DNA of 64,000 nt from Octopus vulgaris (lineage: Eukaryota), in contig OX597818.1 in NCBI GenBank assembly GCA_951406725.2, positions 64,418,001-64,482,000 on the forward strand. Direction: 5' to 3'. This document shows, piece after piece, positions 33,087-60,050 of this stretch (position 1 is the first letter of the stretch; every line of letters begins with the position of its first letter). The notes under the pieces are model-generated. The model saw nothing but the letters and a program-made list of their open reading frames with translations, searched no databases and was not told the origin of the DNA. Made by a program: the position numbers and the translations under genes.

Positions 33087-33144
33087 AACAACAACAACAA
33101 CAACAAATCTAATCAACAACATGTTCCTTGTAAGGGTAGTAATT

Positions 33145-33400
33145 ATTCTATCGGTTCTTTTGCCGAACCGCTACGTTACGGGGACGTAAACACACCGACA
33201 TCGGTTGACAAGTAATGATGAAGGGGCAGGCAGACACACACACATATATATATATATATATTTCCAACGGGCTTCTTCAGTTTCGTCTATCAAATCCACT
33301 CACAAAGATATGCTGCGCCCGAGTGCCACGCAGTGGGGAGCTGAGCCCCAAACAATGTTGTTCGGAAATATGCTTCTTACCACATAGTCATGCCTGCGCT
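33145..33400 (-). mobile_element. Degenerate SINE family A
   Basis: TATTCTATCGG..TTTTGCCGAACCGCTA..CAAATCCACTCACAA matches the family. Confidence 0.75.
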
Positions 33401-33409
33401 TGTATATAA

Positions 33410-33452
<43 letters not shown>

Positions 33453-33633
33453 TATTAGAGACAAAACCACTATTTTGCAAAACAAACAAGGAAAGACTTA
33501 ATCAATACATAAAATTTTAATAAATAGTCAAAAAAACCGCCACTACAATCGTTTCTTGTCTTGATCGACAATCTTATTTACAAGTCAGTTTCAAATTACT
33601 TCATAATTTGAAACTGACTTGTAAATTGGAAGT

Positions 33634-33676
33634 CCACCTGAAGATTGTCGATCAAGACAAGAAACGATTGTAGTGG
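33634..33676 (+). ncRNA. Type I hammerhead ribozyme, unit 1
   Basis: CCAC-CUGAAGA-UUGUC-GAUCAA-GACAA-GAAA-CGAUUG-UA-GUGG; all core positions and stems present. Confidence 0.85.
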
Positions 33677-33740
33677 CGGTTTTTTTACAAGTCAGTTTCA
33701 AATTACTTCATAATTTGAAACTGACTTGTAAATTGGAAGT

Positions 33741-33783
33741 CCACCTGAAGATTGTCGATCAAGACAAGAAACGATTGTAGTGG
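33741..33783 (+). ncRNA. Type I hammerhead ribozyme, unit 2
   Basis: Identical to unit 1. Confidence 0.85.
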
Positions 33784-33849
33784 CGGTTTTTTTTTACAAG
33801 TCAGTTTCAAATTACTTCATAATTTGAAACTGACTTGTAAATTGGAAGT

Positions 33850-33892
33850 CCACCTGAAGATTGTCGATCAAGACAAGAAACGATTGTAGTGG
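33850..33892 (+). ncRNA. Type I hammerhead ribozyme, unit 3
   Basis: Identical to unit 1. Confidence 0.85.
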
Positions 33893-34066
33893 CGGTTTTT
33901 TTGACTATTTATTAAAATTTTATGTATTGATTAAGTCTTTCCTTGTTTGTTTTGCAAAATAGTGGTTTTGTCTCTAATAATATTTTATAATATTTTACTA
34001 TAAAATTGGATTTAATCCTAAATCTGATTTTTTTTCCCTGTAAATTTGGATTTATTCCCTAATATT

Positions 34067-34136
<70 letters not shown>

Positions 34137-34824: not shown

Positions 34825-34992
34825 GAAGTCCCACTGTGTGGCACCTTGGGCCAGTGTCTCCTACTATAGCCTGGAGCCGACCAAAGCCTTGTGAGTGGAT
34901 TTGTTAGACGGACACTGAAAGAAGCCCGTCGTATATATGTAGATATATATGTGTGTATTTGTGTTTGTCCCCCCAACATCGCTAGACAACAG
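34825..34992 (+). mobile_element. Partial SINE family A
   Basis: Body and start of the tail match the family. Confidence 0.8.
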
Positions 34993-35361
34993 ATATATAT
35001 ATATATACGCACACACGCCCACCCACACACACACACAAATATACACATGTATATATTGCGTTTCTCTGTTAAATATATTTCTAACACAGCAAATCCATAA
35101 GAGATGTTATCTCAAATACTTGGGTACCTGGTTATTCGTATTGTGTACATATTAATGATGACACATATGAGAAGGACAGCTCTATGAACGTGGATAATCT
35201 ATGAATGTGTGTCCCTAACTGATGCAATGTAATGTCGTACAACACCTACTCTTCCCCGAAAATGTCCATAGCTATCTTGTGTGTATTCATACAATATATA
35301 TGTGCGTGTGTGTGTGTCTGTGTCTGTGTCTGAGTGTGGGAGGGGGCGCGTGCGTGTGTTC

Positions 35362-35654: not shown

Positions 35655-36039
35655 TACGTAGGCTATGTAGTAAGTAGCTTGCTTACCAACCACATGATTT
35701 CCGATTTCAGTCCCACTGTGTGACACCTTGGGCAAGTGTCTCCTACTATAGCCTCGAGCCGACCAAAGCCTTGGGAGTGGATTTGTTAGACGGAAACTGA
35801 AAGAAGCCCGTCGTATATATGTAGATATATGTGTGTGTATTTGTGTTTGGCCCCCGAACATCGCTTGACAACAGATGGTGATGTTTATACGTCCCCTTAA
35901 CCTAGCAGTTGGGCAAAAGAAGCGATTGATTAATTACTAGGTTTACAAAGAATAAGTCCTGAGGTCGGTCTGCTCGACTAAAGGCGGTGCTCCAGCATGG
36001 CCACAATTAAATGACTGAAACAAGTAAAAGAGTAAAAGA

Positions 36040-36087: not shown

Positions 36088-36259
36088 CAACAATTGAGGG
36101 TAAAATTAATTAATTATTAATCAATTTCACCAAGTGTTCAGTATGCAAAGGGGCCATTTAAGGCGAATTCAAATTATTACATTATATAATTATATATATA
36201 TAATTATATAATTATATATATATAATTGATCAAAATAAAAACATGATGCCAAGGATTCA

Positions 36260-36337
36260 GCGGTACATATGTTTCGGGCCTTTATTAGACAGATTTATAA
36301 CAATGCATAATGTATGTCTGTGGCCTTCTTCAGCCGC
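36260..36337 (-). ncRNA. Type I hammerhead ribozyme (left arm)
   Basis: Reverse complement of 36869-36946. Confidence 0.82.
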
Positions 36338-36868
36338 ACACAACAGCTTCCACAAGGACATGTGTTACATCAAAAATTCTTGGTTGGGGATGCAAATCCT
36401 CTCATTCGCGTACGACATAATGCGGCAACAGCATAGAATTGAAGCGTCCATCTCTTTCTTCTCTCAATGTAGAATGAGAAATTTGGATGTTGAAGTAATG
36501 TAAATAAATGAATACATATATAGACGTGAAGATGGAGGGGCGAGAATTCAGGACGAGGGATAAAATATGTATGTATAAAAAGTGTAAGTATAGAAAAATA
36601 TATATATTTTTCTATACTTACACATTTTATACATACATTTTTTATCCCTCGTCCTGAATTCTCGCCCCTCCATCTTCACGTCTATATATGTATTCATTTA
36701 TTTACATTACTTCAACATCCAAATTTCCTCATTCTACATTGAGAGAAGAAAGAGATGGACGCTTCAATTCTATGCTGTTGCCGCATTATGTCGTACGCGA
36801 ATGAGAGGATTTGCATCCCCAACCAAGAATTTTTGATGTAACACATGTCCTTGTGGAAGCTGTTGTGC

Positions 36869-36946
36869 GCGGCTGAAGAAGGCCACAGACATACATTATG
36901 CATTGTTATAAATCTGTCTAATAAAGGCCCGAAACATATGTACCGC
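36869..36946 (+). ncRNA. Type I hammerhead ribozyme (right arm)
   Basis: GCGG-CUGAAGA-AGGCC...GGCCC-GAAA-CAUAUG-UA-CCGC; palindromic stem III ACAUAUGU; GUA triplet. Confidence 0.82.
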
Positions 36947-37053
36947 TGAATCCTTGGCATCATGTTTTTATTTTGATCAATTTACTCCACCACCTACACC
37001 ACCAAACGGTATACACAGGTGCTTATAATTATCAAGTACTCACCCCGAATTTC

Positions 37054-58804: not shown

Positions 58805-60050
58805 CGAGGGACGTTCAATAAGTAATGCCTCTGACCCACTTGCTCTAGCTGAAATTTTGATGTGCAATCATTTATATCTCTATAGAGTAAGTGGCAAATT
58901 ACAGCTCTGAATTAATTGTGGTTTCTGATTTACAGGTGTTTGAACCGAGTCAAGTGTGAAATGGAGCCTGTTGAGTGTCGAGCAGTGATCCGGTTTTTGT
59001 ATTTGAAATGACGCACACGACGGGAGACTTTTGATGAAATGAAAGTAACTTATGGTGATGACGCCCCATCATATGACCTTGTAAAACGCTGGCATCGTGA
59101 ATTCAAACATGGTCAGAACTCTGTGGAAACAGCTCCCAGATCTGGTCGCCCCTTCTGCCATTGATGAGGCATCTGTCCGTCAAGTTGAGGCTGCCATTTT
59201 GGAAGATCGACGCATAATTATTCGCCAAATAGCCCATGAGATCAAGATTAGTACCGGGTCTGTGGAAACTATCATTCATGACCATTTGCATATGCAAAAG
59301 GTGTTTGCCAGATGGATTCCCAGGTTGCTCACGCCTTTCCTGAAGCAAGAACGCGTCGAGTGCTCGAGGGTGAATTTGGAGATGTGCCAAGAAGATGAGT
59401 CAAAATTTTTCAAAAGACTGATTACACAGGATGAAACCTGGGTCCATCACGATGATCCAGAGACCAAAGCCCAGTCAATGCAGTGGAAGCACCGTGACTC
59501 ACCCCCTCCAAAGAATGCAAGGGTGCAGCCCTCCGCTGGCAAGGTCATGCTCACAGTCTTCTGGGGCCAGGACGGGGTAGTGATGACAGATTTCCTGGCA
59601 AAGGGTACCACAATTGCAGGAGACTATTATGCTTCACGTTTGAGGAAATTAAGAGAAGCTATCAAAATCAAGAGGCGGGATAACGCTCCGGTCCACAACT
59701 CGCTTGTCGCCAGATCAGAAGCACAGGCGTATGGCTATGAACTCCTCCCCCACTACCCTACTTTCCTGACCTTGCACCCTTTGATTTTCACCTCTTCCCA
59801 GTCATGAAGTTGTTTTTGAAAGGAAAGCGTTTCCCAGATGATGCAGCCTTGATTTCTGAAGTCACGTTCAGGTTGGAGGACCAAGCTGGGGTCTTCTACA
59901 AAAACGGTCTCCAGAGCTGCATCAAGCAATGGGAGAAATGCGTAACTCTGGGTGGTTCCTATGTAGAAAAAGACTAATAACTGTACCAAGTTCCGTTGCT
60001 CTACTGCTATGGGAAGTGGGTCAGGGGCATTACATATTGAACGCCCCTCG
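58805..60050 (+). mobile_element. Mariner element, near full length, inactive
   Basis: TIRs CGAGGGACGTTCAATAAGTAATGCCTCTGACCCACTT / AAGTGGGTCAGGGGCATTACATATTGAACGCCCCTCG; TA on the left flank, TG on the right. Confidence 0.95.
58961..59977 (+). pseudogene. Mariner (DD34D-type) transposase pseudogene
   Basis: Starts MEPVECRAVIRFLYLK* (stop 59009-59011). Motifs PRSGRP, WIPRLL, TQDETW, DNAPVH, PDLAPFDFHLF and end GGSYVEKD*. Frameshifts and a deletion before DNAPVH. Confidence 0.93.

What the first reader, a model, noticed from the sequence alone, without database searches (positions are those of the whole stretch)
33443..34069. Three identical intact hammerheads in tandem, each preceded by a 20-bp hairpin, inside a fold-back
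Seen: units start at 33579, 33686 and 33795 (107/109-bp period, differing only in T-run length). Each has a perfect hairpin TACAAGTCAGTTTCAAATTA-CTTCA-TAATTTGAAACTGACTTGTA, then CCAC-CUGAAGA-stem II-GAAA-CGAUUG-UA-GUGG. Inference: adjacent units could pair their palindromic stem III in cis as a double hammerhead and release 107-109-nt monomers able to circularise, as retrozyme or satellite-type multimers do. The array could come from rolling-circle reverse transcription or repeated template jumping at the T-run.
Basis: partly seen in the sequence, partly recalled or inferred. Interest (0 to 1): 0.88.

Follow-up and report, generated by a model that had tools for sequence, protein, structure and literature searches.

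The report
Stuttered copy of spliced Penelope RNA
The three self-cutting RNA motifs in a row are real but occur as an array only here: they are likely a copying stutter in one of hundreds of short, intron-less copies of the front end of a Penelope-type jumping gene, and those copies suggest that such elements are copied from ordinary spliced messenger RNA.

Summary
In detail: three identical hammerheads (107/109-bp period), 22-23-bp hairpins and 133-bp perfect outer arms, inside (TA)n. One DNA run gives 2.0x flank depth over the junction, closer to three units (2.13) than two (1.53).

It is not a retrozyme family. The hammerhead core has 989 exact matches in the genome, but the tandem junction occurs only here. 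The element is the 5' end of a Hydra-type Penelope-like retroelement; a copy with RT and C-terminal GIY-YIG was found. It is inserted head-to-head, as is usual for this family, and the hairpin is the centre of that palindrome.

The element is spliced. A 23/27-nt first exon starting at an initiator-like site is joined to the hammerhead exon: 453 exact spliced junctions from two donors, against 310 unspliced acceptors. The template was therefore likely spliced sense mRNA, read through an uncut hammerhead. This argues against the published antisense-template model.

The trimer likely arose by fold-back plus two re-primings at the U7 run during insertion (0.6); later DNA slippage is the main rival (0.25). 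A cis double hammerhead is predicted to fold, but cleavage, transcription and circles are untested.

The parts
33403..33446 (.). (TA)n target microsatellite, left side
33443..33598 (-). Left arm: inverted copy of the spliced element, from the short end (element position 175) to position 6. A 14-nt deletion between 33575 and 33576 removes stem I 5' strand and CUG of its hammerhead
33576..33626 (+). Hairpin 1 (23 bp, loop CTTCA): the head-to-head junction of antisense and sense first exon
33598..33686 (+). Sense copy 1: first exon, hammerhead exon up to the T7 run
33634..33676 (+). Minimal type I hammerhead 1; predicted cut after 33672
   Evidence: sequence motif; activity untested
33680..33687 (+). 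Junction 1: T7 run joined to antisense first exon; found only at this locus
33684..33732 (+). Hairpin 2 (22 bp): repeated head-to-head centre
33741..33783 (+). Hammerhead 2; predicted cut after 33779
33787..33796 (+). Junction 2: T9 run joined to antisense first exon; spanned by a contig of run X3
33793..33841 (+). Hairpin 3 (22 bp)
33814..33840 (+). First exon of the parent element (23 nt plus GTAA, the downstream-donor form); starts at the A of an initiator-like TCACTTC in the parent
   Evidence: initiator consensus recalled
33841..34069 (+). Second exon (pLTR with hammerhead) and tail; 99.1% identical over 229 nt to the sequence after the AG acceptor in L038
33850..33892 (+). Hammerhead 3; predicted cut after 33888
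33990..34069 (+). 80-nt tail on one arm only; lies between the family's two fixed ends (33989 and about 34069), inferred to be reverse-transcription start sites; about 60 nt upstream of the ATG in L038
34062..34133 (.). (TA)n target microsatellite, right side

Best explanation
This is a young, non-coding, head-to-head copy of the spliced 5' end of a Hydra-type Penelope-like retroelement in (TA)n, whose centre was likely repeated twice by the reverse transcriptase during insertion. Shown: parent element, exact splice junction, two fixed ends, junction unique to this locus. Inferred steps: (1) the parent's promoter makes an RNA starting at ACUUCAU, and a 1.1-3.6-kb intron is spliced out upstream of the hammerhead; (2) the RT-GIY-YIG protein nicks (TA)n and starts cDNA at two internal sites, about 175 and 255 nt from the 5' end, copying through the uncut hammerhead; (3) the right-hand cDNA reached the RNA 5' end, folded back for 22-23 nt, re-primed with its AAA end on the U7 run after the hammerhead, did so twice, and was then joined to a left-hand cDNA that had stopped at position 43. 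The array would be a dead end unless read through by an outside promoter. If it is transcribed, units 1 and 2 are predicted to form a double hammerhead.
For: Parent: L038 has tail, ATG, RT (P0001) and C-terminal GIY-YIG (P0002), then a long 3' region ending in the same pLTR and tail. P0001 hits P0011 at E 7e-77 and P0002 at 1e-33; P0011 is nearly the Hydra-2_Amil protein printed in the supplement of PMC8557442 (compared by eye). Splicing: long copies have first exon | GTAAGTATGT ... TTTTAG | ATTGGAAG. Exact genomic junctions: 348 for the first donor, 34 for the donor 4 nt downstream, 3 of them here, 71 for the GAAA variant whose first donor is dead and so must use the second (predicted before the search), against 310 unspliced acceptors; all reversed controls 0. 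Architecture: 29 of 44 distinct short loci are -/+ head-to-head pairs; arm ends are 39 short, 39 long and 3 other of 81; 67 of 81 arms start within 12 nt of the initiator-like A (loci picked by searches that required the first exon, so the starts are biased). Single event: both jumps (position 27) and the left-arm deletion (after position 28) fall at one point, and units and arms have no substitutions. Jumping is a family habit: L078 and L079 restart internally after reaching the 5' end, L079 three times. The T-run is a junction hotspot: 55 of the first 100 of 350 listed copies begin there (read by eye, no downstream control). Two internal RT starts that define the tail, and use of uncut RNA, were shown in vitro for an anole element (PMC11167929).
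Against: Sequence alone cannot separate jumps during insertion from slippage just after it, and TTT microhomology fits both. The fold-back-and-jump pattern is seen once; L078 and L079 jump without fold-back. T7 versus T9 could be a consensus error. Arms nearly always share the rare splice form and SNPs (site 68: 23 of 23 pairs agree; splice form differs in 2 of 18 pairs), so step 2 with two separate RNAs is not the rule and one arm may be copied from the other. The 80-nt tail is longer than the 30-40 nt in print. No intact parent ORF was seen: L038 is frameshifted and other long loci are partial.
Confidence: 0.6

Rival explanations
1. Same spliced head-to-head copy, but the 107-bp centre was duplicated afterwards at DNA level (slippage or repair at the palindrome using TTT microhomology, then unequal exchange): the birth of a minisatellite.
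For: The repeat is bounded by T microhomology and sits at a hairpin-forming centre. Local amplification of a PLE end by unequal crossover is the model put forward in bioRxiv 10.64898/2026.07.22.740005.
Against: Needs two duplications and a deletion at one point within the short life of a copy with no substitutions. Only 1 locus shows this among hundreds of similar palindromes.
Confidence: 0.25
2. Rolling-circle reverse transcription of a ~108-nt hammerhead circle (non-LTR retrozyme).
For: Tandem complete type I hammerheads meet the working definition of a retrozyme in the 2026 preprint. The double-hammerhead fold is the lowest-energy fold of the trimer. A circular template was proposed for PLEs (PMC4209133).
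Against: No source array: the junction is unique. The two other loci with the same hairpin centre are single pairs of the other splice form. The periods differ (107/109). Both flanking arms hold sequence that is not in the circle.
Confidence: 0.05
3. Assembly or library artefact: a palindrome-induced false repeat.
For: Palindromes cause chimeric reads (general knowledge). No listed contig spans the whole array, and the T7 junction and the left-arm deletion were not seen among the listed pieces (most pieces not shown).
Against: An independent-chemistry contig in X3 carries the T9 junction and hairpin centre at 2.01x flank depth.
Confidence: 0.06
4. The short first exon was joined by DNA deletion in a non-autonomous master copy that then amplified, not by splicing.
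For: A few master copies could account for many identical junctions.
Against: The junctions fall exactly at GT..AG, in two forms 4 nt apart, each matching a GT. The GAAA promoter variant shifts to the second GT (71 matches). Both forms occur on both SNP backgrounds. In L013 the two arms carry different forms.
Confidence: 0.04

Closest known systems
Hydra-clade Penelope-like elements (Craig et al. 2021, PMC8557442)
   Same: RT plus C-terminal GIY-YIG, DKT, CxCX5C linker, CxxC and CxH motifs, hammerhead in the pLTR, (TA)n target, inverted 5'-truncated copy and one-sided tail.
   Different: KWK instead of RWK; 80-nt tail; a kilobase 5'-UTR intron inside a long, internally repeated pLTR; hundreds of spliced copies. 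It is not the curated Hydra-1_Obim, whose protein and hammerhead differ; four probe strings from this family had 0 hits in that supplement.
PAc, Poseidon element of the green anole (Frangieh et al. 2024, PMC11167929)
   Same: Two fixed ends downstream of the hammerhead that define a tail; copying through an uncut hammerhead; AT-rich target.
   Different: Here both ends lie upstream of the ATG, not inside the ORF, and are 80 nt apart. The evidence is genomic, not biochemical.
Penelope of Drosophila virilis and rotifer Penelopes (PMC2377424, PMC3846280)
   Same: Internal promoter, short first exon, 5'-UTR intron just upstream of the hammerhead, head-to-head palindromic junctions.
   Different: Those are described as keeping the intron after transposition, with an antisense template proposed as the reason. 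Here 453 exact junctions have lost it.
Metazoan non-LTR retrozymes (PMC7229834; bioRxiv 10.64898/2026.07.22.740005)
   Same: Tandem type I hammerheads with a palindromic stem III able to act as dimers; derived from a PLE pLTR.
   Different: One locus, not a family. The unit is 107-109 bp against about 300 bp, carries an antisense fold-back, has a minimal hammerhead, and there is no evidence of RNA.

Membership tests
Hydra-clade PLE (parent) | RT with C-terminal GIY-YIG endonuclease in one ORF | tested here: met
   L038:1030-3545 in two overlapping frames; matches one-ORF relatives P0003-P0012. The local Pfam copy gave no informative hit.
Hydra-clade PLE (parent) | DKT motif; CxCX5C linker; CxxC and CxH in the endonuclease | tested here: met
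   SDKTRN in P0001; CTCRDKSNC, CYLC and CRH in P0002 (definitions)
Hydra-clade PLE (parent) | N-terminal RWK motif | tested here: inconclusive
   KWK at the aligned place; relatives have RWR or RWK
Hydra-clade PLE (parent) | Hammerhead in the pLTR; insertion in (TA)n | tested here: met
Hydra-clade PLE (parent) | Placement in the Hydra clade on an RT tree | not tested
   No tree built; tie by similarity only
PLE insertion structure | Inverted 5'-truncated copy and a tail at one end | tested here: met
   29 of 44 short loci are -/+ pairs; tail 80 nt rather than 30-40
PLE insertion structure | Intron kept in transposed copies | tested here: not met
   This copy and 450 other exact junctions are spliced; 310 acceptors are unspliced
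PLE minimal type I hammerhead | CUGANGA/GAAA/NUH core, 4-5-bp stem I, palindromic stem III | tested here: met
   definitions
PLE minimal type I hammerhead | G10.1-C11.1 pair closing stem II | tested here: not met
   U-A in the sequence; conserved G-C stated in PMC4209133
PLE minimal type I hammerhead | Self-cleavage | not testable with these tools
   Indirect only: L038's ORF strand starts at the predicted cut; 6 of 100 listed copies start at or next to it
Non-LTR retrozyme | Two or more tandem units, each with a complete type I hammerhead | tested here: met
   definition
Non-LTR retrozyme | Same unit dispersed as a family | tested here: not met
   Junction 2 of 2 matches here; 4 close same-strand pairs genome-wide, with 3 different junction types
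Non-LTR retrozyme | Monomer of about 300 bp with a canonical hammerhead | tested here: not met
   107-109 bp, 4-bp stem I (PMC7229834 passages)
Non-LTR retrozyme | Transcribed, cleaved and circularised RNA | not testable with these tools
   No RNA holder listed; only contigs available

The most novel reading that the evidence does not exclude
This locus is a retrozyme caught at birth: a Penelope-like RT turned a spliced 5'-UTR copy into a hammerhead trimer in one insertion, freeing two ribozymes from the antisense arm so that read-through RNA is cut and circularised into a 107-109-nt circle. The family also gives genome-scale proof that Penelope-like elements copy spliced sense mRNA, so intron retention is only a by-product of starting reverse transcription in the downstream pLTR. 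The spliced-sense-template part alone I put at about 0.9; the active-circle part is the weak link.
Probability: 0.1. Interest if true: 0.75.

Novelty: new variant of a known kind. Interest (0 to 1): 0.5.

Why it matters
The array itself is a one-off by-product. The value lies in the family. How Penelope-like elements keep introns is called unexplained in PMC8557442, and PMC3846280 proposed an antisense template to explain both intron retention and head-to-head palindromes, leaving the test open. Here hundreds of head-to-head copies carry exact GT-AG junctions from two donors and start at the initiator-like site, which fits only a spliced sense template. With internal RT starts, one simple model follows. 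Starts in the first pLTR give short, spliced, dead copies. Starts in the downstream pLTR of a read-through RNA give long copies that keep the intron. The copies also map promoter, splice sites and RT starts without experiments, and the trimer shows one way a PLE end can become a tandem hammerhead array. My searches listed no paper on spliced PLE copies, but the library lacks most subscription papers, including the 2003 intron paper, which I did not see.

Tried and rejected
Rfam at gathering thresholds: 0 hits.

Pfam: no informative hit on 4 parent ORF pieces or on 3 relatives. PDB: none. Protein search among longer proteins: none, wrong length class.

Sigma-70 scan: at chance level and not suited to an animal.

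Host gene: 24 of 88 long frames scanned, only a mariner-type transposase found, so whether the locus lies in an intron is unknown.

Expression: no RNA holder listed. Two runs guessed to be RNA hold family pieces, and none of the listed pieces bridges a junction, but 585 pieces were not shown. This is no evidence either way.

Pile-up of 5' ends at the hammerhead cut: weak. Of the first 100 of 350 rows (by eye), 55 start in the T-run or GAC, 6 at the cut, 1 just after it, 19 inside the hammerhead, and 19 are indel variants.

Empty-site or polymorphism check: impossible, contigs break at (TA)n.

One search used a wrong ambiguity letter (0 matches) and was redone. Search of earlier notes by sequence and by place: nothing.

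Full report
Observation. The window is AT-rich, microsatellite-rich animal DNA from a 2.8-Gb genome. The three units, the hammerheads and the 133-bp perfect arms are as described. The hairpins are 23, 22 and 22 bp. A contig of DNA run X3 spans the second junction and the hairpin centre without a mismatch at depth 119.2, against 59.2 on the unique flank. The ratio 2.01 is nearer the 2.13 expected for three units than the 1.53 for two. This is supporting, not final: contig depth is no copy number and X3 may be the assembly's sample.

Family. Below, element position 0 is window 33814. The hammerhead core has 989 exact matches in the genome. Of 44 distinct short loci taken are a minus-strand copy followed by a plus-strand copy. 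Arms end at two fixed places, about 175 and 255 (39 short, 39 long, 3 other of 81), and lie in (TA)n. So the fold-back and the first hairpin are the ordinary head-to-head junction of this family. This matches the inverted copy plus one-sided tail described for Penelope-like elements (PMC8557442, passages; dual hammerheads on opposite strands in PMC4209133, part 1).

Parent. Thirteen loci with distant or multiple hammerheads were fetched. [quoted passage not shown] Window 33841-34069 is 99.1% identical to it. The protein has DKT, CxCX5C, CxxC and CxH as defined for the Hydra clade, with KWK for RWK (section 11 of PMC8557442). It matches P0011, which by eye is close to Hydra-2_Amil in that paper's supplement. 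It is not Hydra-1_Obim. No tree was built.

Splicing. In long copies the first 23 nt of the short element sit 1.1 to 3.6 kb upstream, followed by GTAAGTATGT, and the rest begins after TTTTAG (15 first-exon copies in 7 loci). Exact genome-wide counts: 348 junctions at the first GT; 34 at the GT four bases on, the form in this locus; 71 from a promoter variant GAAAGTATGT whose first donor is dead (a prediction made before the search); 310 unspliced acceptors. These are arm counts from exact patterns, not locus counts, and are lower bounds. The first exon begins at the A of TCACTTC, an initiator-like motif (consensus recalled), and 67 of 81 arms start within 12 nt of it (biased, since the searches required the first exon). 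L073/L074 is an exception that extends about 27 nt upstream. The layout parallels D. virilis Penelope (PMC2377424, passages). PMC3846280 (discussion read) proposed an antisense template to explain intron retention and head-to-head palindromes and left it open; spliced head-to-head copies argue for the sense mRNA. PMC11167929 (parts 1-2 of 4 read) showed two internal RT starts defining the tail and use of uncut RNA, which fits the two fixed ends and the intact hammerheads here.

The trimer. Read along the bottom strand, the locus is antisense 255-0, sense 6-27, antisense 88-0, sense 6-27, antisense 88-0, sense 6-28, sense 43-175. Three breaks fall at one point, just past the splice junction, where the strand ends in AAA(T). 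Twice it resumes at the T/U7 run, and once it joins a left arm that lacks 14 nt. With no substitutions in units or arms, one event at insertion is the simplest reading: fold-back of the finished cDNA, re-priming on U7 twice, then end joining. Weak rU-dA pairing would help (recalled). Two other loci show restarts after the 5' end: L078 once, L079 three times. The T-run is the commonest listed 5' junction (55 of 100, by eye, no downstream control). Slippage in DNA after insertion cannot be excluded.

Not a propagating retrozyme. The T-run-to-antisense junction has 2 matches, both here. Only 4 same-strand hammerhead pairs lie within 10-160 nt genome-wide, 2 of them here. The same hairpin centre occurs at two other loci, both single pairs of the other splice form. 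The locus meets the pipeline definition of a retrozyme in bioRxiv 10.64898/2026.07.22.740005 (parts 1 and 3 of 5 read), but not the family, size or RNA features in PMC7229834 (passages).

Could it cut? The lowest-energy fold of 33576-33900 contains the full double hammerhead of units 1 and 2 (-122.2 kcal/mol, against -119.0 with one monomeric fold enforced). Its ensemble share with every pair enforced is only 0.018. In the whole-element RNA the left arm takes one hammerhead and the share falls to 0.008 for units 1-2 and 1e-8 for units 2-3. In ordinary head-to-head copies both hammerheads would be locked in double-stranded RNA, so this locus is unusual in leaving two free. Against activity: the U-A pair at 10.1-11.1, low activity of minimal dimers and trimers (PMC4209133 part 2), cleavage in only 1 of 9 frog dimers, and no upstream promoter in the copy. 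Hints that the family's hammerhead cuts in vivo are thin: L038's ORF strand starts at the cut, and 6 of 100 listed copies start there.

Results against my reading. The arms almost always agree in SNPs and splice form (site 68: 23 of 23 pairs; splice form differs in 2 of 18). One RNA, or copying of one arm from the other, is therefore more usual than two independent RNAs; L013 shows that two RNAs can be used. No intact ORF, no RNA evidence and no spanning long read were available.

Literature coverage. Nine searches were run. None listed a report of spliced PLE copies or of this family, but the library is incomplete. PMC8969392 was seen as passages only. The preprint's supplements were not opened and could list similar short arrays.

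Verdict. The feature is real. It is a one-off rearrangement of a spliced retrocopy of a Hydra-type Penelope-like element: new variant of a known kind, interest 0.5, most of it from the family-level evidence on the template of PLE retrotransposition.

Noticed in passing
window 36224-36982: A second near-perfect palindrome (arms about 380 nt, 98-99%) in TA-rich DNA, with a different type I hammerhead on each strand (36869-36946 +, 36337-36260 -; palindromic CATATG stem III). Likely a head-to-head end of another Penelope-like family.
   Followed up: partly
window 59085-59807 +: Mariner-type transposase fragment, Pfam PF01359, E 9.6e-24.
   Followed up: no
L038:795-796: The ORF-bearing strand of a near full-length copy starts at the predicted hammerhead cut, with one base of ambiguity; a possible trace of cleavage in vivo.
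   Followed up: partly
L013 (G000:C23:11309780-11310128): The two arms of one insertion carry different splice forms from different promoter variants, so two RNA molecules served one insertion; L017 looks similar.
   Followed up: partly
L033-L045: Long copies are multi-kilobase palindromes whose 3' region holds 1.2-1.7-kb internal repeats, each with its own first exon and donor; some nearest copies have a dead first donor.
   Followed up: partly
L038:2442-3545: The linker between RT and endonuclease carries a long asparagine-rich stretch, like the N-rich inserts described for rotifer Penelopes.
   Followed up: no
window 33119-33261, 34827-35009, 35709-35891, 35815-35957: Copies of common short interspersed repeats flank the element; not identified.
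   Followed up: no
L079 (G000:C26:1976262-1979415): A diverged subfamily (about 90% identity) whose hammerhead changes the stem II loop and one stem II pair; its left cDNA jumps three times.
   Followed up: partly
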